Position numbers and translations under genes: made by a program
From: Pyrinomonadaceae bacterium
Lineage (GTDB): Bacteria > Acidobacteriota > Blastocatellia > Pyrinomonadales > Pyrinomonadaceae
Direction of reading: 5' to 3'
NCBI GenBank assembly: GCA_035563515.1
Contig: DATMVE010000059.1
Location: forward strand, 22,725 to 86,724
Length of the DNA stretch: 64,000 bases
Shown: in pieces, positions 80 to 5,666 of the stretch
How positions within the stretch are numbered: the stretch's first letter is position 1
How the letters are laid out: each line of letters starts with the position of its first letter
The notes under the pieces: model-generated
What the model was told of the DNA's origin: nothing
Databases searched by the model: none
The model's input: the letters and a program-made list of their open reading frames with translations, nothing else

Positions 80-193
80 CTTGCTCACTTGCTCACGTCT
101 ATAATGATTTGAACAAGTGAGCAAATTCCTTATTAGCGCGTTAATAGAACTTGCTCACTTACTTTCCACTATAGACGTGAGCAAGTGAGCAAG
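80..193. repeat. Putative replication origin / iteron block: nested inverted repeats built from the 8-mer TTGCTCAC around an AT-rich core
   Basis: 80-103 (cttgctcacttgctcacgtctata) is the perfect reverse complement of 170-193. An inner inverted pair lies at 114-124 and 150-160. There are six copies of TTGCTCAC/GTGAGCAA (81, 89, 117, 151, 177, 185). The block lies just 3' of the helicase gene. Confidence 0.55.
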
Positions 194-208
194 TTTCATT
201 TTACCGCG

Positions 209-1345
209 CTACATTATCTTACTGGCTTCTTCTATGGCCTGCGTGTATTCCTCTGACGGGGCGTAATAGCCAGTCTTCGGACTTATTAAATCCCCTCGCG
301 TAACGGCCGTACTCAAGCAACGAGTAATAGTAGCGTCTGAAATTTTTCCGTCCAGAGCATCTACCACTTCTTTGCGCTTCACCAACCGCCCAAAACTTCT
401 GGCGGTCGAGAGAACAACCTCGTAGTTAGTCGGCGCGGGATGAACTATCTCGTTCGTCGGCACGAACCAGCGGGATTCTTCATCAAGACGCAGTATCACA
501 GGCTCTAGCCGAAAGCCTTTGGATTTCTCGACCGAAAAGATTACCCGCTCAGCATCCAAAGTATCCTTCTTCAACGCCGTCACGGTACGTGCCAAGCCGC
601 CGATATTAGAGCCACCGCGTCCGAGGTACGCGCCGACAGTCGTTTTTCCATCCTCATTCTGCTTGCCAATATGATGTAGCATCCACACTACTGATTTGGC
701 GTCTTTGGCGAGTTTCTTCAAGGGCTGCATGACGACCCTTTTTATTTCAGCATTATCGCTCTCGTTTCTTAACGTGAACAATGCCGACATCGTATCTACG
801 ATAATCAAGTCAGGCTTAAAACTGCGAGCGCACTCCGCGATTGCCTTCAAGTGTTGAGGACTGGAAAGATTAAGAGGCTCATCATTTATTTCTTCATCGC
901 AGATAATGAATAAATTTTCTTCGACGAGGGCGCGTTCTTGAGGAGTCCAACTTCGCATCATTATTTTCAAATCATCCCTTAATTCCGCTTGCGTGCTCTC
1001 GCCGTCAATTAACAACACACGTCGGCTTTCGCCCCCATTGTCTTTAATGAAAGGATGGAACGTCCTACCCGCCGCTAAGGTCAGAGCGAGATTTAAGGAA
1101 ATCGTCGTCTTTCCTAAATTGGTCACGGCAAACATTACCCCGACGTTACCCCGAACCAGACCGAAAAGGATTTTATCTACCTTCTCGAACTCATGATTCG
1201 ACAGTTCGCCCCACGTAAGACCTAACCTAGTTTCGTTAGTAATCTCCGTCTGGCTTTCGCTTGCCGGATTATTTGAGCCATCACCATACTGTTGCTCAAA
1301 ATCCTCTGCTGAATAATCAGTAAATATCGAGTTGTCCATTACCAT
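209..1345 (-). CDS. RecA/DnaB-like replicative ATPase (AAA_25-type helicase of primase-helicase modules)
   Basis: ORF 209..1381. Walker A-like GVMFAVTNLGKTT and Walker B-like DLIIVDTMSALF. Start moved to the in-frame ATG at 1345, which has GGAGGA 7 nt upstream and follows the primase stop (1350-1352). Confidence 0.75.
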   Translation of the reverse strand: MVMDNSIFTDYSAEDFEQQYGDGSNNPASESQTEITNETRLGLTWGELSNHEFEKVDKILFGLVRGNVGVMFAVTNLGKTTISLNLALTLAAGRTFHPFIKDNGGESRRVLLIDGESTQAELRDDLKIMMRSWTPQERALVEENLFIICDEEINDEPLNLSSPQHLKAIAECARSFKPDLIIVDTMSALFTLRNESDNAEIKRVVMQPLKKLAKDAKSVVWMLHHIGKQNEDGKTTVGAYLGRGGSNIGGLARTVTALKKDTLDAERVIFSVEKSKGFRLEPVILRLDEESRWFVPTNEIVHPAPTNYEVVLSTARSFGRLVKRKEVVDALDGKISDATITRCLSTAVTRGDLISPKTGYYAPSEEYTQAIEEASKIM

Positions 1346-1349
1346 TAGG

Positions 1350-2348
1350 CTATCCTCCAACTTGAAACAGCACATCATCAAGACCTTTGCCTAATGATGA
1401 AGACCACGTTCGTATTTTTACTGCTAAGTCCGTTTTCTCAAGCGTATGTTTCAAGCGAAACAGCGCAGCCTTAACTTCCGGCTTTTCTTGCCAATCTATA
1501 TCGAAGCCGATAAGTACGCTTCTCAGCTTAGGTAATCCATGCTTGATTCGAGCAGTAAACTTTTCGGGATTCATCGCCGTCACGCCTGCTAATGCCACAG
1601 TAGCCACATAAGCAAATTCGCTTATACGGTCTGCCTTCAATGCGCCCTCGGTAACAATCACTTCCCCGCTCTGTTCAGTAAGGTCGGGCTTTGAAAAGTG
1701 TAACGGTGCTCCGGGCGATGCTCCTTCCAGCTTATCAGCCGAACTTAGCCATAAATACTTCGGCTCTTGATTCCCGTCGCGGCGAATCTGCAAACCGACG
1801 ATACGCCCGTATTCATCCCTGTAAGGGACGTAGAAGCCTTTGAACGAGACATTCAACTGCCAGCGCCCATCTTGATAGTAGAACCCCGGTACGCCTCTTA
1901 AATCGAAGAACCGAGCCAGCGCACGCGCTAAACGATGGCCTCTAGCCTTATCGGGAACGGAAGCATAAAGCCTGTTAGCAATAGTCGTATCAGATAACCC
2001 GCGCTCATTTAACAGCGCGTTTGCGTGTTCAGGATTAAGTTTCAAATAAGAGAGCAAAGCCATATAAACAGCATCGCAAGTTTTGGCATCGGCTTTCTTA
2101 GGCTCAGTCTTTTGAACAGAAGGAGCGCCAACATAAAGGGCCGTGCTGTTATTAGGGTTTAGAATATGAATGTACCTTCCATCCTTAGCGTGCTGGTCGC
2201 TCCATTTGTATTTACACACAGCGAGCGAGCCATCAACCGTTACTGAGCAGTGATAGCGGTCAGTCCTGCCGCAAATTTGGCAAGTGATTTTGCCCTTCTT
2301 GAAAGGAGATTGAATGTATTGACGTTTTTTCGTTTCGGTAAGTCTCAT
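1350..2348 (-). CDS. Primase-like protein (N-terminal zinc finger plus Toprim-like domain)
   Basis: Cys cluster CQICGRTDRYHC..C near the N-terminus. Toprim-like EVIVTEGALKAD and acidic GFDIDW motifs. The ATG overlaps the upstream stop (TAATG at 2346-2350). Confidence 0.7.
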   Translation of the reverse strand: MRLTETKKRQYIQSPFKKGKITCQICGRTDRYHCSVTVDGSLAVCKYKWSDQHAKDGRYIHILNPNNSTALYVGAPSVQKTEPKKADAKTCDAVYMALLSYLKLNPEHANALLNERGLSDTTIANRLYASVPDKARGHRLARALARFFDLRGVPGFYYQDGRWQLNVSFKGFYVPYRDEYGRIVGLQIRRDGNQEPKYLWLSSADKLEGASPGAPLHFSKPDLTEQSGEVIVTEGALKADRISEFAYVATVALAGVTAMNPEKFTARIKHGLPKLRSVLIGFDIDWQEKPEVKAALFRLKHTLEKTDLAVKIRTWSSSLGKGLDDVLFQVGG

Positions 2349-2563
2349 TACACTTCCCCCTTCTCTTCAACTACGGCCTGATTGAAATGTCGTCGCTTGT
2401 AGTCTTCTAGCTGTTTCATCGTGTATCTGATAGTTCGGTTATTGAATCGAACGTAATCAATCTCGCCGCGTTTTCTAACTGAGCGCATCGTGTAAACTGA
2501 CCACCCGAAAAAACCGGCGGCTTCTCGTTCTGTAAGTAGTGCATTTTCTATATCCTGTATCAT
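2348..2563 (-). CDS. Small helix-turn-helix protein, excisionase/AlpA/MerR-like
   Basis: Core LTEREAAGFFGWSVYTMRSVRKRGEIDYVRF resembles Xis/AlpA-type HTH. The ATG at 2563 has AGGAG 8 nt upstream. Translationally coupled to the primase. Confidence 0.65.
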   Translation of the reverse strand: MIQDIENALLTEREAAGFFGWSVYTMRSVRKRGEIDYVRFNNRTIRYTMKQLEDYKRRHFNQAVVEEKGEV

Positions 2564-3006
2564 TTCAATTACTCCTATAAGGTTGAACGTGCTGTCGCCT
2601 TCCGGTATCATTTAGACAGAAAGCGGCGCACACGCCGCCCCTTGTAGCGCACAAAGCGGTGCTTGGGCGAGGACAGGGCGAAGGTGGTTAGGCGTCGAAA
2701 ACTAAGCCACTTTCGCCTTTCTCTTTATTATCTTTTCGACCTTATTTTACCGATTTGCAACTATCCGCAGCAAGTTCGCGCGCCTATCGTCTGTCCCTCC
2801 AAGTGGTAATTTATTCAACAATTTATACAAGGCGGGAAAACTAAATACAGGCTGTTGCCTATGCTCTGCTATCCTCTCTTGTCTATAAAGTTTGGGGGGC
2901 ATAATCACTCACGTCAAGATTTATTTTTAGACATTCCAAACAAAATGCTCACAACTGAAACTCAGCCGTGAGCAAAGTAATAATTGTCTATAATGTGGGA
3001 AACGAA

Positions 3007-4098
3007 CTAATCAATTAACGTTTCAATCTCACGTAGTTCATCTTCTATATAAATCTTTTCCCAAGATATATTTTCGAGGGTAGGAATTTCGGAATACTTC
3101 TTATAAATCACATGCCCCTTACCTTCGAGCAACCTATAAAAGCAGAACCGCAGCATCTTTAGCGCGATAACGAAATGCTGTTCGCCTTTATGGTTTTTAA
3201 TGTCCGTGTTGGTTATGTCCACTCCATGAACGATTTTTGAGCGGAGGTCATAAAAATCCCTCGCCCACCAGCCATAAATGGTATTGGTCTTATCTTTGCC
3301 TAGAGCGTTCGCTTTTGTAATTCGATTTAAGCCTGTCTGAATAGTGTTGCCGTCTTCACCATATACTGGCATTTTATCAACTTCTAATAATGTCTCTAAG
3401 CGCGTTGCAAATTCATCCTCCTTTTTGTAGCGAGGCAGGTCAAAGAAAATCTCAAACGCAGTCGCCATCATCACGAGTCGGCTCTCTGGACTATATCCAT
3501 CAGCGTTAAAGTAAGCGTACCGCACCCAATCTAAGACCCTAAAATATCTAATATCATCTGGATTATGTGCGTCCGCCATATTTGCAAAAGCATTCATCAG
3601 AAGAGAATCATAACGATATGGGAACGTGCTACTAGGAACGAAGCTAGGTCTAACGAACTTAGTCATTTCTAATGACTGAGTATTCAAATTGCGAAGATAG
3701 CTTCCGGTTTCAAAGGAAATGTAATCGTATTTTGACGGATTTAGTGCAAATGGCTGAATCGCCATATTGAATTGTTCACTCACACATACACTGTTGATTT
3801 GGTTATTGAGGACGCTACAAAACAAAAGAGCAACTGCATATCTATAAAGGTCTTGCGCTTGCTCATCAGTTAGGACATCAAAATTGTAGTTGTCGTCAAT
3901 CACTGCAATAGCTAGGGTCTTTAACCTCTTATGCATGTAATCAACGTAAAGGGAACAGTATTCATCAATACGCTTTCTTAAGTCAGCGTTCGGGATATAC
4001 TTTTCTCCATACTTTGCAAAGTTGAATAGATGGACTCTGTTAATCTTTCGGTCAATATCATCATCAGGAAAGTAAGGCAAGAATGCGAATTGTGGCAT
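3007..4098 (-). CDS. Cargo protein of unknown family with a C-terminal HEPN-like Rx4H motif (candidate Abi-type RNase)
   Basis: 363-aa ORF, AT-rich like the element. Motif WARDFYDLRSKIVHG (R286..H291, nt 3226-3243) fits the HEPN Rx4-6H signature, preceded by a helical segment SRLVMMATAFEIFF. Lies between the integrase terminator and the replication module. Confidence 0.55.
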   Translation of the reverse strand: MPQFAFLPYFPDDDIDRKINRVHLFNFAKYGEKYIPNADLRKRIDEYCSLYVDYMHKRLKTLAIAVIDDNYNFDVLTDEQAQDLYRYAVALLFCSVLNNQINSVCVSEQFNMAIQPFALNPSKYDYISFETGSYLRNLNTQSLEMTKFVRPSFVPSSTFPYRYDSLLMNAFANMADAHNPDDIRYFRVLDWVRYAYFNADGYSPESRLVMMATAFEIFFDLPRYKKEDEFATRLETLLEVDKMPVYGEDGNTIQTGLNRITKANALGKDKTNTIYGWWARDFYDLRSKIVHGVDITNTDIKNHKGEQHFVIALKMLRFCFYRLLEGKGHVIYKKYSEIPTLENISWEKIYIEDELREIETLID

Positions 4099-4180
4099 TA
4101 GATTTCCCTTTCACTAGGCTTAAAGGCTAGCGACCTGATAAGCAAAAATGCGACGGATTTATTTTACTGCAATAGAGGTT

Positions 4181-4212
4181 AAAAAAAGCCAGCCGAAAAT
4201 CGGGCTGGCTTT
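4181..4212 (-). terminator. Rho-independent terminator downstream of the integrase
   Basis: On the minus strand: AGCCAGCC-cgattttc-GGCTGGCT followed by a T7 run (A-run 4181-4187 on the plus strand). Confidence 0.7.
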
Positions 4213-4237: not shown

Positions 4238-5377
4238 CTAGTTGATTAGCTGTAGCACGGCTGTGGCTTGTACTTCGGCTGATTGAGCGAGATAGGCTTC
4301 CAAAGCAGACGCGGCACGAAAGACCGTATCATTATCAGCGCGGATATAGCGAAAGACACAGCTAAGGGTGCTGTGTCCGCTCACCCGCATGACAGTAGCG
4401 TGAGGCATCCCGGCCTCAATCATCCGGGTTATGCAAGTCGCCCGGCAATCATGAAAGTGGAAGTCTTCTATTCCGGCCTCGCGGCATATTTTTGTCCACG
4501 CTGTTTTGATTGTCACCTTGACGTTGAAGACATGCGAGTTTTCATCCGTCACATTTTCGCGCCAGCGTAGAAGCCACTCATAAACGCGAATCGTCATAGC
4601 TACAGTCCGGCTCTTCGCGGTCTTCGCGTTGAAGGCCCGGACTGTAATGGTTCGGCTCTCTAAGTCAACGTCTGACCATTTCAGGGTGAACAACTCGCCG
4701 CGCCTTAGCGAGCAATCTAAGGCTATCAAGACCAGCCCTTTAATGTGTGCGCGTTGCGGGTAAGAATCAATGGCGGCTAAAAGCCGCGCTTCTTCAACTC
4801 TCGACAGGATGCGCGTCCGGTGGTTCTCGTCGTTCAGGCTTATTAAGGCGTCACCCTCTGAGAACACGTTTCGCGGCATCCATTGTTCACGAACGGCAAT
4901 CCGAAACATACGCCGCAGTTGTCCAAGTTCCCTGTTGATGGTCGCAATGGTACGCTGCCCGCCCCGACGAGTCGGAGTCTCTAGCCGCATCTTCTTATAG
5001 CTTCGGATTTGGCCGTAAGTAATGGCTTTCAGCTTATGACCACCGAAGTGTTCAACCAGCGGCTTGATTACAGTCCGTGCAGTCACTAGCGAACGCAAAC
5101 CCGAAACCTTCCTTCCGCCGACGTAAGAGGCGGGCTGTAGGTAATGCTCAAGATAATGCTTAGCCAAGTCAGCGAACGTCATGTTCGCGGCGTCTAATTC
5201 TTTAGGCGTTAGAGTCTCCAAGTCGCGGAGTAGCTTTTGAATGATTTTCCGCGCTTCCCCTCTGCTCGCAGCCTTTTTCCAAATGTCTCGTTGCTTTCCG
5301 CTTGCGTCTTTGAACCTCACTCGCGCATAAAGTTTTCCATCCTTCGTAACTATTGAGCCTCTGCGTTCTCTCGGCAT
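4238..5377 (-). CDS. int: Tyrosine recombinase / phage-type integrase
   Basis: 379 aa. Catalytic signature LRRGE (Arg), HDCRATCITRM (HxxR), GHSTLSCVFRYI (His..Tyr). Adjacent to the tRNA half-site. Confidence 0.9.
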   Translation of the reverse strand: MPRERRGSIVTKDGKLYARVRFKDASGKQRDIWKKAASRGEARKIIQKLLRDLETLTPKELDAANMTFADLAKHYLEHYLQPASYVGGRKVSGLRSLVTARTVIKPLVEHFGGHKLKAITYGQIRSYKKMRLETPTRRGGQRTIATINRELGQLRRMFRIAVREQWMPRNVFSEGDALISLNDENHRTRILSRVEEARLLAAIDSYPQRAHIKGLVLIALDCSLRRGELFTLKWSDVDLESRTITVRAFNAKTAKSRTVAMTIRVYEWLLRWRENVTDENSHVFNVKVTIKTAWTKICREAGIEDFHFHDCRATCITRMIEAGMPHATVMRVSGHSTLSCVFRYIRADNDTVFRAASALEAYLAQSAEVQATAVLQLIN

Positions 5378-5510: not shown

Positions 5511-5558
5511 TCCCTTACAAGGAAGAGGTTGGGGGTTCGAATCCCTCCGTGCCTACCA
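5511..5558 (+). other. 3' half of tRNA-Val(TAC), positions 29-76 including CCA. No matching 5' half is present, so this is an att junction remnant.
   Basis: tcc-CTTACAA-gga(ag) anticodon stem-loop, variable loop aggtt, T arm GGGGG-TTCGAAT-CCCTC, acceptor 3' strand cgtgcct, discriminator a, CCA. Upstream sequence has no D arm and no AGGCACG acceptor strand. Confidence 0.75.

Positions 5559-5584: not shown

Positions 5585-5666
<82 letters not shown>

What the first reader, a model, noticed from the sequence alone, without database searches (positions are those of the whole stretch)
3007..4098. Single cargo gene with a HEPN-type Rx4H motif in the satellite's accessory slot: candidate new abortive-infection/defence gene
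Seen in sequence: a 363-aa ORF with no family I can recognise in the first ~200 residues. Its C-terminal part contains WARDFYDLRSKIVHG (R286-x4-H291, nt 3226-3243), preceded by a helix-like SRLVMMATAFEIFF. It is transcriptionally isolated. The int terminator lies upstream, and downstream a 395-bp gap separates it from the replication genes. It occupies the slot between int and the regulatory/replication module. Established knowledge: the Rx4-6H motif in an all-helical context defines HEPN RNases (Abi2/AbiD/AbiF, AbiJ, AbiU2, AbiV, ApeA, Cas13, RnlA). Phage satellites and integrase-proximal slots are known hotspots for anti-phage cargo. Inference: this is a stand-alone HEPN effector fused to an unknown N-terminal sensor domain, possibly an undescribed Abi-type system. 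No partner (antitoxin) ORF of 60 aa or more is visible beside it.
Basis: partly seen in the sequence, partly recalled or inferred. Interest (0 to 1): 0.72.

Follow-up and report, generated by a model that had tools for sequence, protein, structure and literature searches.

The report
Uncharacterised HEPN-type RNase island cargo gene
This lone gene, carried on a tiny integrated mobile element, belongs to a large unstudied protein family that keeps the catalytic signature of HEPN RNA-cutting enzymes, so it is probably a new single-protein anti-phage or anti-invader RNase, though no one has tested this.

Summary
A 363-aa ORF lies at 3007-4098 (-) between an integrase and an HTH/primase/helicase module, with a terminator on each side and no conserved partner. 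It is not an orphan. An exhaustive profile search finds 1,082 representative clusters (at 50% identity), nearly all two-domain proteins of 330-400 aa. All genome-scan loci come from uncultured genomes of many phyla, and none from phage, plasmid or viral collections. Across 112 members at about 20% identity, only E216, R286 and H291 are invariant, which is the HEPN acidic + Rx4H signature. They sit where HEPN rules predict in a confident AlphaFold model (pLDDT 92.6). Pfam HEPN_Apea is the only recurrent family hit (13/112; one above threshold).

Three results weaken the case. Foldseek finds no HEPN or other structural match. Profile-profile similarity to experimentally studied ApeA is marginal. 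PADLOC's ApeA model misses the protein while detecting true ApeA.

So this is an ApeA-like HEPN protein with a different, unrecognisable N-terminal domain. It is not ApeA.

Genomic contexts are integrase islands, defence-type neighbours (SIR2, NACHT, PLD), an SNF2/DUF1156 restriction-like operon and, in five non-redundant loci from two lineages, RtcB RNA ligase.

Verdict: a plausible new variant of single-protein HEPN defence, with function untested. "Satellite" is unproven.

The parts
3007..4098 (-). Target ORF, 363 aa (stop codon included). Two-domain protein of a large uncharacterised family.
   Evidence: 40 close homologs. 1,082 representative clusters at E<=1e-3. AlphaFold pLDDT 92.6, pTM 0.91. 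GC 0.40 against 0.65 for the host DNA.
3619..4098 (-). N-terminal alpha/beta domain (about aa 1-160) with no recognisable family or fold match. Putative regulatory or sensing domain (inferred).
   Evidence: Secondary structure (seven strands, four helices). No Pfam, NCBIfam, PHROGs or PADLOC hit. No Foldseek hit in PDB or BFVD. Always found together with the C-terminal domain in the best 150 family representatives.
3010..3618 (-). C-terminal helical domain (about aa 161-363), HEPN_Apea-like. Proposed helices: H1 180-195, H2 204-219, insert 220-273 (one helix plus a four-stranded beta-meander), H3 274-290, H4 308-326.
   Evidence: Pfam HEPN_Apea E=0.0054, 17.6 bits, aa 210-320 = profile 2-126/136. 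13/112 members hit it, best 2.1e-5. P0075 scores 24.8 bits against a cutoff of 24.4. The domain folds alone with pLDDT 92.2. Foldseek finds no HEPN match.
3226..3243 (-). R286-S-K-I-V-H291, the Rx4H motif at the C-terminal end of helix 274-290.
   Evidence: Invariant in A1 (37 sequences) and A2 (112 sequences). Wider family consensus LRNxIVHG. hhalign pairs it with the ApeA YRTRNLIVH motif that contains the published catalytic R502.
3451..3453 (-). E216 codon, an invariant acidic residue in helix 204-219 (TAFEIFF). Candidate HEPN helix-2 acidic residue.
   Evidence: One of only three invariant columns in A2. The HEPN rule comes from PMC3710099.
2946..2974 (-). Intrinsic-terminator-like hairpin (13-bp stem) plus TTTTGTTT, 33 nt after the target stop codon.
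4178..4212 (.). GC-rich hairpin (GCCAGCC-N8-GGCTGGC) flanked by A/T runs, between the int stop (4238) and the target start (4098). Works as an int terminator on the - strand.
   Evidence: Sequence. The scan listed it on the + strand.
4238..5377 (-). Tyrosine integrase of the island.
   Evidence: Pfam Phage_integrase 2.3e-30. Homologous integrases flank the target homolog in L011 and L014.
5527..5558 (+). tRNA/tmRNA 3'-end-like fragment (GGTTCGAATCC...CCA). Probable att remnant marking the int-proximal end of the island.
   Evidence: Sequence. Weak match to the tmRNA 3' end, E=0.024. The 6,040-bp contig L009 breaks at window position 5540, inside this fragment.
5588..5664 (+). tRNA-Asp(GTC), host side of the junction.
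2348..2611 (-). HTH_17 (AlpA/excisionase-like) small DNA-binding protein, first gene of the island's regulatory/replication module.
   Evidence: Pfam HTH_17 1.2e-5 (25.9 bits, just under the 27-bit cutoff). PHROG 66 excisionase/regulator 4.8e-5.
1350..2348 (-). DUF3854 (Toprim-type) primase-like protein.
   Evidence: Pfam DUF3854 9.9e-12. PHROG 47 DNA primase 3.9e-4.
209..1381 (-). AAA_25 / DnaB_C-like replicative helicase.
   Evidence: Pfam AAA_25 2.8e-22. PHROG 239 primase/helicase 2.5e-17.
80..193 (.). Iteron cluster: five exact copies of GTGAGCAAG in inverted groups. Probable island replication origin. The island runs off the left edge of the window.
   Evidence: 5 matches against 0.4 expected; none of 100 shuffles reached 5. 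L009 sequence.

Best explanation
The gene encodes a self-contained, two-domain ribonuclease of the HEPN superfamily, nearest to the Pfam 'Apea-like HEPN' clade.

Proposed mechanism, all inferred:
- Two C-terminal domains dimerise to form a composite, metal-independent active site from R286/H291 of each subunit, with E216 alongside.
- The enzyme is kept inactive by the tightly packed N-terminal alpha/beta domain.
- A signal of infection or invasion, such as a small ligand or a phage component, switches it on.
- It then cuts cellular RNA, most likely tRNA anticodon loops as ApeA, HepS and DARNA do, leaving 2',3'-cyclic-phosphate and 5'-OH ends. This stops translation and aborts the infection.

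What is shown:
- The gene rides as the only cargo of a tRNA/tmRNA-integrating replicative island of at least 6 kb.
- It moves between genomes as a low-GC cassette.
- The family is real and large.
- The E...Rx4H signature is invariant.
- The motif positions fit HEPN rules in a confident model.
- No partner gene is conserved.
- Contexts are mobile or defence-type.

What is not shown: RNase activity, dimerisation, the trigger, the RNA target, or defence itself.
For: 1. Family and conservation: 40 close homologs and 1,082 representative clusters, 186 at E<=1e-30, nearly all 330-400 aa covering both domains. In 112 members at a mean column identity of 20%, the only invariant residues are E216, R286 and H291.

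2. HEPN rules from PMC3710099 against the model:
- Rx4-6H lies at the end of helix 3: R286 is near the end of H274-290 and H291 is the first residue after it.
- The residue after R is polar: S287 here, N in the family consensus LRNxIVHG.
- A conserved acidic residue sits in an upstream helix: E216 in H204-219.
- An insert lies between H2 and H3: aa 220-273.

3. Pfam: HEPN_Apea is the only recurrent family (13/112, best 2.1e-5). It covers almost the whole profile in the window protein. One member exceeds the gathering score. Only about one chance hit at E<=0.01 is expected over 112 scans, and the two other hits were singletons to unrelated families.

4. ApeA motifs: hhalign pairs the motif with ApeA's catalytic YRTRNLIVH. 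The RSLEW...TAFEILL helices pair with Ec1ApeA RSLRY...WIALECIFE.

5. Context:
- It sits in the same int-proximal slot in an island with a different replication module (L011).
- Neighbours elsewhere include integrase+PLD, IS110+SIR2, SLFN+NACHT+kinase, YaaC and DndB+methylase.
- It lies in an SNF2/NOV_C helicase and DUF1156 methylase operon, with a 4-bp overlap with the helicase gene in L024, L033 and L030, in 10 of 82 loci. One of these also has HEPN_Swt1-DUF499.
- Tyrosine integrases flank it in 7 loci and serine recombinases in 4.

6. RNA-end chemistry: RtcB lies immediately downstream on the same strand in five non-redundant loci from two lineages that are only 37-39% identical. One locus adds a second RNA ligase. 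RtcB joins 2',3'-cP to 5'-OH ends (PMC11090510), which are the ends HEPN RNases produce (PMC3710099).

7. Foreign composition: 0.35-0.47 GC in every locus examined, below its neighbours (window gene 0.40 against 0.65).

8. No conserved small ORF, tandem repeat or intergenic element lies beside it.
Against: - Foldseek gives no HEPN hit, and no significant hit at all, for the full model or the C-terminal domain alone. Best E-values are 1.2 and 0.52 in the PDB and 0.32 in BFVD.
- A profile search of PDB sequences finds nothing.
- Profile-profile comparison with experimentally characterised ApeA is weak: 11.8% probability over 26 columns. For the HEPN domains only it is 48.9%, with the first helices mis-registered.
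- The window protein's own Pfam hit is below threshold (17.6 against 24.4 bits), and 99 of 112 members show no Pfam hit at E<=0.01.
- PADLOC has no match apart from a faint DzbB hit in 3/112 members.
- No family member comes from a cultured organism, and none has been tested.
- The RtcB neighbour has much higher GC than the target (0.57 against 0.39), so the adjacency may reflect insertion next to a resident rtcB rather than a functional pair.
- Only some neighbours are recognised defence genes. No enrichment statistic was computed.
Confidence: 0.6

Rival explanations
1. It is the toxin of an addiction (toxin-antitoxin-like) module that stabilises the small island. The HEPN RNase would be held in check by an unannotated antitoxin, such as a small RNA or peptide in the flanking gaps or self-inhibition with a labile factor. 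Its role would be island maintenance rather than phage defence.
For: HEPN toxins with RNA or protein antitoxins are known, for example AbiF with an RNA antitoxin and HepT/MntA (text of 10.64898/2026.02.22.705581). The gene is the sole cargo of a minimal island that would benefit from stabilisation. 139-bp and 395-bp non-coding gaps flank it.
Against: There are no tandem repeats of type III antitoxin style in the flanks; only two marginal arrays of 1.9 copies. No small ORF of 25 aa or more and no intergenic sequence is conserved next to the closest homologs. Many homologs lie in chromosomal defence-type neighbourhoods or restriction-like operons, not on small islands. No recurrent adjacent small gene appears in 82 loci.
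Confidence: 0.12
2. It is an RNA-processing or RNA-repair accessory nuclease that works with RtcB-type ligases, trimming or cutting RNA so that it can be religated. On this view it is a housekeeping or stress function that happens to be mobile.
For: RtcB lies directly downstream in five non-redundant loci from two divergent lineages. One locus has an additional RNA ligase, PF09414. HEPN nucleases act in RNA processing in other systems, such as Las1 and Swt1 (PMC3710099).
Against: RtcB linkage is limited to 5 of 82 non-redundant loci and is absent from the window; there is no RtcB anywhere in its 64 kb. Target and RtcB differ sharply in GC. The patchy, multi-phylum distribution, the integrase/recombinase association and the defence-type neighbours do not fit a housekeeping role.
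Confidence: 0.1
3. It is not an active nuclease. The conserved E/R/H could bind a nucleotide or nucleic acid, and the protein could serve the island itself, for example in helper-phage interference, regulation or partitioning. The helical domain would be only superficially HEPN-like.
For: Foldseek finds no HEPN match for a confident model. The similarity to ApeA is marginal. Most members do not hit any Pfam HEPN model.
Against: The three invariant residues are exactly the HEPN catalytic set, in the expected positions. HEPN_Apea is the only recurrent Pfam hit, and one member passes its threshold. The gene occurs in many non-island contexts, so an island-specific function is unlikely.
Confidence: 0.13

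Closest known systems
ApeA (Gao et al. 2020 system; Ec1ApeA WP_000706972.1 and Ec2ApeA; mechanism in bioRxiv 10.64898/2026.01.26.701840)
   Same: Both are single-protein systems with a C-terminal HEPN-type domain carrying a Y-x-x-R-[N/S]-x-I-V-H motif and an upstream conserved Glu in a hydrophobic helix (WIALES against TAFEIF). Both have an N-terminal region without known homology, packed tightly against the HEPN domain. Neither has a partner gene. Both are carried on mobile elements; Ec2-type ApeA sits in a P2-like prophage.
   Different: ApeA is about 580-600 aa with three domains: a helical N domain, a PafA-like Mid domain, and a split HEPN of about 250 aa with large insertions. This protein is 363 aa with one alpha/beta N domain of about 160 aa and an HEPN-like domain of about 200 aa. 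PADLOC's ApeA model detects Ec1 and Ec2 ApeA but not this protein. hhalign gives 11.8% for full profiles and 48.9% for the HEPN domains alone. The ligand pocket, decamer assembly and tRNA target are unknown here.
Pfam PF18739 HEPN_Apea (the ApeA/BMEI1217 family of Anantharaman et al. 2013)
   Same: It is the only Pfam family hit repeatedly by this family. The match spans nearly the whole 136-position profile and includes the catalytic motif. JGI labels one homolog 'Apea-like HEPN'.
   Different: Most members, including the window protein, score below the gathering threshold. The N-terminal domain is not covered by any model. Ec1 and Ec2 ApeA themselves do not hit PF18739 at E<=0.1, so the Pfam family and the experimental ApeA are not equivalent.
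HepS (Gifsy-1 prophage, PMC13043305) and DARNA/PD-T7-3 (bioRxiv 10.64898/2026.02.22.705581)
   Same: Both are single-gene, mobile-element-borne HEPN abortive-infection RNases that sense infection themselves and cut tRNA. Neither has a conserved partner gene.
   Different: HepS is a standalone HEPN domain under 250 aa that forms tetramers and senses a tail-tip protein. DARNA has an N-terminal HEPN and a 300-aa helical C-terminal ssDNA-sensing domain. Neither architecture matches an N-terminal alpha/beta domain followed by a C-terminal HEPN. No sequence or Foldseek match to either was seen.
PrrC/RloC-type anticodon nucleases embedded in restriction-modification loci
   Same: A distant subclade of this family is embedded, with overlapping stop and start codons, in an SNF2 helicase / DUF1156 methylase / DUF499 restriction-like operon. 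This recalls an HEPN anticodon nuclease as a back-up to R-M. Anantharaman et al. note that ApeA-family genes are embedded in R-M operons.
   Different: There is no ABC-ATPase domain, and the window copy is not linked to any R-M genes.

Membership tests
HEPN superfamily | Conserved Rx4-6H motif | tested here: met
   R286-x4-H291 is invariant in 37 and in 112 sequences.
HEPN superfamily | [quoted passage not shown] | tested here: met
   In the AlphaFold model, helix 274-290 ends at residue 290, H291 is the first loop residue and the next long helix is 308-326. Rule from PMC3710099.
HEPN superfamily | Polar residue (typically N/D/H) immediately after the conserved Arg | tested here: met
   S287 is invariant in the close family. 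Asn is the consensus in the wide family, LRNxIVHG.
HEPN superfamily | Second conserved acidic residue upstream in helix 2, often within Ex3[KR] | tested here: inconclusive
   E216 is invariant and sits in helix 204-219.
HEPN superfamily | Four-helix up-down bundle core, shown by structural similarity to solved HEPN domains | tested here: inconclusive
HEPN superfamily | Dimerisation forming a composite active site; metal-independent RNase activity giving 2',3'-cP ends | not testable with these tools
   Only indirect support: RtcB and RNA-ligase neighbours in five non-redundant loci.
Pfam PF18739 HEPN_Apea | Score at or above the gathering threshold (24.4 bits) | tested here: not met
   The window protein scores 17.6 bits, E=0.0054. 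Family level: 13/112 hits at E<=0.01, and one representative (P0075) reaches 24.8 bits. The window protein itself fails, and the family sits on the edge of the model.
ApeA defence system (PADLOC PDLC02157; Ec1ApeA prototype) | Match to the ApeA full-length model | tested here: not met
   In the same run, Ec1ApeA gives E=0, Ec2-type gives 1.3e-12, and the window protein and P0075 give no hit. 0/112 members hit it.
ApeA defence system (PADLOC PDLC02157; Ec1ApeA prototype) | Three-domain architecture of about 580 aa (helical N, PafA-like Mid, split HEPN) | tested here: not met
   The protein is 363 aa with a single alpha/beta N domain of about 160 aa (compared). hhalign aligns only the catalytic-motif region.
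ApeA defence system (PADLOC PDLC02157; Ec1ApeA prototype) | Anti-phage activity, tRNA anticodon cleavage, ligand-activated oligomeric ring | not testable with these tools
   Needs experiments.
Phage satellite (P4-like, PICI, cfPICI, PLE, PICMI) | Hallmark genes for hijacking a helper (capsid, packaging or redirection genes), or demonstrated helper-dependent induction and packaging | tested here: not met
   Contig L009 (6,040 bp) holds only int, the target, an HTH gene, DUF3854, an AAA_25 helicase and iterons. No structural or packaging gene is present. The cargo family is absent from 2.9 M viral contigs and from the phage collection. Helper dependence is not testable here. A minimalist, PICMI-like satellite cannot be excluded (that comparison rests on my own knowledge).
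Dazbog (DzbB) | Match to the DzbB model plus an adjacent DzbA | tested here: not met
   Only 3/112 members give a faint DzbB hit (best 3.7e-4), and the window protein gives none. No conserved neighbour was found.

The most novel reading that the evidence does not exclude
This family is a previously unrecognised, widespread single-protein immune system of uncultured soil and sediment bacteria, present in at least eight phyla and one archaeon. A new alpha/beta sensor domain would gate an ApeA-like HEPN RNase. In some lineages the damage would be deliberately reversible through a linked RtcB/RNA-ligase repair module. That would be a built-in 'cut and reseal' dormancy switch rather than suicide.
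Probability: 0.2. Interest if true: 0.75.

Novelty: new variant of a known kind. Interest (0 to 1): 0.55.

Why it matters
Single-protein HEPN defences such as ApeA, HepS and DARNA have only just been worked out mechanistically. Each couples a different sensing surface to the same RNase core.

This family would add a fourth architecture, and a large one: over 1,000 representative clusters at 50% identity. It sits entirely in uncultured lineages that current defence catalogues such as PADLOC do not cover.

The N-terminal domain has no sequence or Foldseek match, so it could reveal a new infection signal. The recurrent RtcB linkage offers a testable link between anticodon-nuclease-type defence and RNA repair.

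If the protein turns out not to be a nuclease, then a confidently folded family with more than 1,000 clusters and no structural relatives is still worth a structure.

Tried and rejected
1. Foldseek of the full-length model against PDB and BFVD, and of the C-terminal domain alone against PDB: no significant match. This neither confirms nor identifies a fold.
2. Profile searches of PDB sequences with A1 and A3: only a chance TcdA1 hit.
3. PADLOC, NCBIfam and PHROGs on the protein: nothing. PADLOC on 112 members: only faint DzbB hits in 3. Dazbog rejected.
4. DARNA/PD-T7-3 and HepS considered and rejected on architecture.
5. Membership in ApeA proper rejected after a positive-control PADLOC run and profile-profile comparison with a purpose-built ApeA alignment.
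6. tblastn against the phage and plasmid collections and a scan of viral contigs: no relatives.
7. Search for a hidden partner using tandem repeats, conserved small ORFs and conserved intergenic DNA: nothing. The 53-aa ORF at 2747-2908 is not conserved.
8. The search for related loci with the broad alignment A2 failed because it was too divergent. A1 was used instead.
9. Looked for a direct repeat or circular overlap at the ends of contig L009 to define att sites: none found. The far end of the island is therefore undefined.
10. Longer family members (P0078, P0166, P0168) were scanned for extra fused domains: none recognised.
11. Literature searches for Dazbog/DzbB and for HEPN_Apea/PF18739 returned nothing beyond the ApeA preprint.
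Full report
**Observation.** The ORF is real: 3007..4098 on the minus strand, ATG start, 363 aa.
- The peptide WARDFYDLRSKIVHG is present. SRLVMMATAFEIFF is residues 206-219.
- The gene lies between a tyrosine integrase (4238-5377, Pfam Phage_integrase 2.3e-30) and an HTH_17/AlpA-like gene (2348-2611). These are followed by a DUF3854 Toprim-type primase-like gene (1350-2348) and an AAA_25/DnaB_C-like helicase (209-1381).
- The downstream gap is exactly 395 bp.
- A hairpin plus T-run follows the int stop codon (sequence). A 13-bp-stem terminator follows the target gene at 2974-2946.
- The only ORF in the gap is 53 aa (2747-2908). It is not conserved beside any homolog.

**The element.**
- The identical gene is found on a 6,040-bp metagenomic contig (L009) that holds exactly int, the target, the HTH gene, DUF3854 and AAA_25, plus about 700 bp of non-coding DNA.
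- That non-coding DNA carries GTGAGCAAG iterons: five exact copies at window 80-193 against 0.4 expected.
- L009 breaks at window position 5540, inside a fragment (5527-5558) that reads like the T-arm, acceptor and CCA end of a tRNA or tmRNA. The fragment lies just before an intact tRNA-Asp (5588-5664).
- This looks like the att remnant of a small island (at least 6 kb) that integrates into a tRNA/tmRNA 3' end. The island's far end lies beyond the left edge of the window.
- The island has no capsid, packaging or redirection genes, so 'satellite' is a hypothesis and not a finding.
- Island GC is 0.44-0.53. The target gene is 0.40 and the host DNA is 0.65.

**The family.**
- A word-indexed search found 40 relatives, all about 350-370 aa and unannotated apart from one JGI label, 'Apea-like HEPN'.
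- An exhaustive HMM search with their alignment found 1,082 representative clusters at 50% identity with E<=1e-3. Of these, 513 have E<=1e-10 and 186 have E<=1e-30. Nearly all are 330-400 aa and match across both domains.
- The genome scan returned 25 loci, all from metagenome-assembled genomes. They span Acidobacteriota, Planctomycetota, Chloroflexota, Binatia, Actinomycetota, Desulfobacterota, a Firmicutes bin, FCPU426 and one Pacearchaeota archaeon.
- A metagenome scan added 67 more loci.
- There are no relatives in 50,697 phage records, 72,556 plasmids or 2.9 million viral contigs.

**Is it HEPN? Evidence for.**
- In 37 close homologs the invariant residues are S133, R207, V209, E216, W278, Y283, R286, S287, V290 and H291.
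- In 112 members at a mean column identity of 20%, only E216, R286 and H291 remain invariant. The consensus around the motif is LRNxIVHG.
- Anantharaman et al. (PMC3710099) define four HEPN features:
  - A polar residue after the Arg.
  - Often an upstream acidic residue in helix 2.
  - Frequent inserts between helices 2 and 3.
- The AlphaFold model is confident (pLDDT 92.6, pTM 0.91) and fits each feature:
  - R286 is near the end of helix 274-290, and H291 is the first residue after it.
  - S/N follows the Arg.
  - E216 lies in helix 204-219.
  - A helix plus a four-stranded beta-meander (220-273) lies between the two helices.
- Pfam HEPN_Apea is the only family hit repeatedly. The window protein scores E=0.0054 over profile positions 2-126 of 136. 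Thirteen of 112 members hit it at E<=0.01, the best at 2.1e-5. One representative, P0075, scores above the gathering threshold at 24.8 against 24.4 bits. About one chance hit would be expected in 112 scans.

**Is it HEPN? Evidence against or missing.**
- Foldseek returns no significant match to anything:
  - the full model in the PDB, best E 1.2;
  - the full model in BFVD, best E 0.32;
  - the separately modelled C-terminal domain (pLDDT 92.2) in the PDB, best E 0.52.
- Profile searches of PDB sequences are empty.
- The ApeA authors needed GTalign to link the ApeA HEPN domain to HepT, so Foldseek may be a weak test for this fold.
- I rate the HEPN assignment as probable, not proven.

**Is it ApeA? 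No.**
- I recovered full-length Ec2-type ApeA (583 aa) and Ec1ApeA (601 aa) from E. coli genomes, using DNA fragments printed in the supplement of bioRxiv 10.64898/2026.01.26.701840. I then built a 31-sequence ApeA alignment.
- True ApeA has a helical N domain, a PafA-like Mid domain and a split HEPN of about 250 aa. It forms decameric rings and cleaves tRNA anticodon loops when 5'-phosphorylated deoxydinucleotides bind a pocket between the N and HEPN domains.
- Profile-profile comparison of the two families gives 11.8% probability over 26 columns. These columns pair YxLR[S/N]xIVHG with ApeA YRTRNLIVH, which contains the catalytic R502.
- With the HEPN domains only, hhalign reaches 48.9% (E 1.8e-4), but the upstream helices are mis-registered.
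- In one run, PADLOC's ApeA model detects Ec1ApeA (E=0) and Ec2-type ApeA (1.3e-12) but neither the window protein nor P0075.
- Ec1 and Ec2 ApeA do not hit Pfam HEPN_Apea at E<=0.1. The Pfam family and the experimental system are therefore not equivalent, and this family is nearer to the Pfam model.
- DARNA (N-terminal HEPN) and HepS (standalone HEPN under 250 aa) differ in architecture.

**Context.** Gene neighbours were clustered over 82 non-redundant loci. There is no universal partner.

| Recurrent neighbour | Loci |
|---|---|
| SNF2/ResIII/NOV_C helicase and DUF1156 methylase operon | 10 |
| Tyrosine integrase | 7 |
| RtcB | 5 |
| Serine recombinase | 4 |

- In the SNF2/DUF1156 operon the target overlaps the upstream gene by 4 bp in L024, L033 and L030. 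One related locus (L020) has an HEPN_Swt1-DUF499 protein upstream.
- Individual loci show integrase+PLD, IS110+SIR2+pentapeptide, SLFN+NACHT+kinase, YaaC+DUF5131 and DndB+methylase neighbours.
- The 62%-identical homolog P0003 occupies the same slot between int and the HTH_17 gene, in an island with a different replication protein (Toprim/DUF3987). That fits exchangeable cargo.
- The gene has the lowest GC of its neighbourhood in every locus examined.

**The RtcB clue.**
- RtcB (PF01139, about 1e-125) lies directly downstream on the same strand in L016, L017/L044, L018 and L019. L045, the fifth non-redundant locus, holds a contig-truncated RtcB fragment.
- L019's target is only 37-39% identical to the others, while the RtcBs are 77-88% identical.
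- L017 adds a second RNA ligase, PF09414.
- RtcB joins 2',3'-cyclic-phosphate ends to 5'-OH ends and can rebuild tRNAs (PMC11090510; PMC7790460). HEPN RNases leave exactly such ends.
- This is independent, indirect support for RNA cleavage and hints at reversible damage in those lineages.
- Caveat: the target's GC (0.39) is far below RtcB's (0.57). The adjacency may therefore reflect insertion beside a resident rtcB. The window has no RtcB.

**Mechanism proposed (inferred).** Two C-terminal domains dimerise to form a composite, metal-independent RNase site from R286 and H291, with E216. The tightly packed N-terminal alpha/beta domain keeps the enzyme off until an infection-derived signal binds, by analogy with ApeA's interdomain pocket. 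Cleavage of tRNA or other RNA then arrests translation and aborts the infection.

Confidence across the four explanations:

| Explanation | Confidence |
|---|---|
| Defence RNase | about 0.6 |
| Island-addiction toxin | 0.12 |
| RtcB-linked RNA-processing factor | 0.10 |
| Non-catalytic protein that only looks HEPN-like | 0.13 |

**Verdict.**
- Three corrections apply. The family is large, not an orphan. It is ApeA-like but not ApeA. The HEPN fold is unconfirmed by structural search.
- Novelty: a new variant of a known kind, namely single-protein HEPN defence with a new N-terminal domain.
- Interest is moderate to good. Everything functional remains to be tested.

Noticed in passing
window 80-193 (continues past the left edge; L009 5340-5550): Five exact copies of GTGAGCAAG in two inverted groups, just downstream of the island's helicase gene (0.4 expected by chance). 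They look like iterons of the island's replication origin.
   Followed up: partly
window 5527-5558: A fragment resembling a tRNA/tmRNA 3' end (GGGGGTTCGAATCCCTCCGTGCCTACCA) lies between int and tRNA-Asp. Contig L009 ends inside it. It is a probable att remnant, so the intact target gene should lie at the island's other end, outside the window.
   Followed up: partly
L016 11812-13029; L017 2257-4590; L018 4042-5262; L019 1098-2366: RtcB RNA ligase lies immediately downstream of the target homolog. In L017 and L044 the RtcB carries an intein with a LAGLIDADG domain and is followed by a second RNA ligase (PF09414, L017 4643-5419).
   Followed up: partly
L024 6006-9530; L033 716-4234 and 5836-8949; L020 1221-4562: A distant subclade of the family is embedded in a restriction-like operon. 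The operon has an SNF2/ResIII/NOV_C helicase of about 1,170 aa (4-bp overlap with the target) and a DUF1156 methylase of about 1,030 aa. L020 also has an HEPN_Swt1-DUF499 ATPase. That would make two different HEPN proteins in one system.
   Followed up: partly
L106 2605-4356 and L107 2651-4456 (E. coli): The experimentally studied Ec1 and Ec2 ApeA proteins do not match Pfam HEPN_Apea (PF18739) at E<=0.1. RefSeq annotates the Ec2-type protein only as 'hypothetical protein', inside a P2-like prophage tail/lysis region.
   Followed up: yes
L011 1-6300: A second island has a homologous integrase and target gene but a different replication module (Toprim/DUF3987 primase-helicase). It also has an extra 296-aa unknown gene in the cargo slot between the target and the HTH_17 gene.
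   Followed up: no
window 2747-2908 (-): A 53-aa ORF lies in the 395-bp gap, downstream of the target's terminator. A gene caller called it on contig L010 but not on L009. It has no homolog beside any family member.
   Followed up: yes
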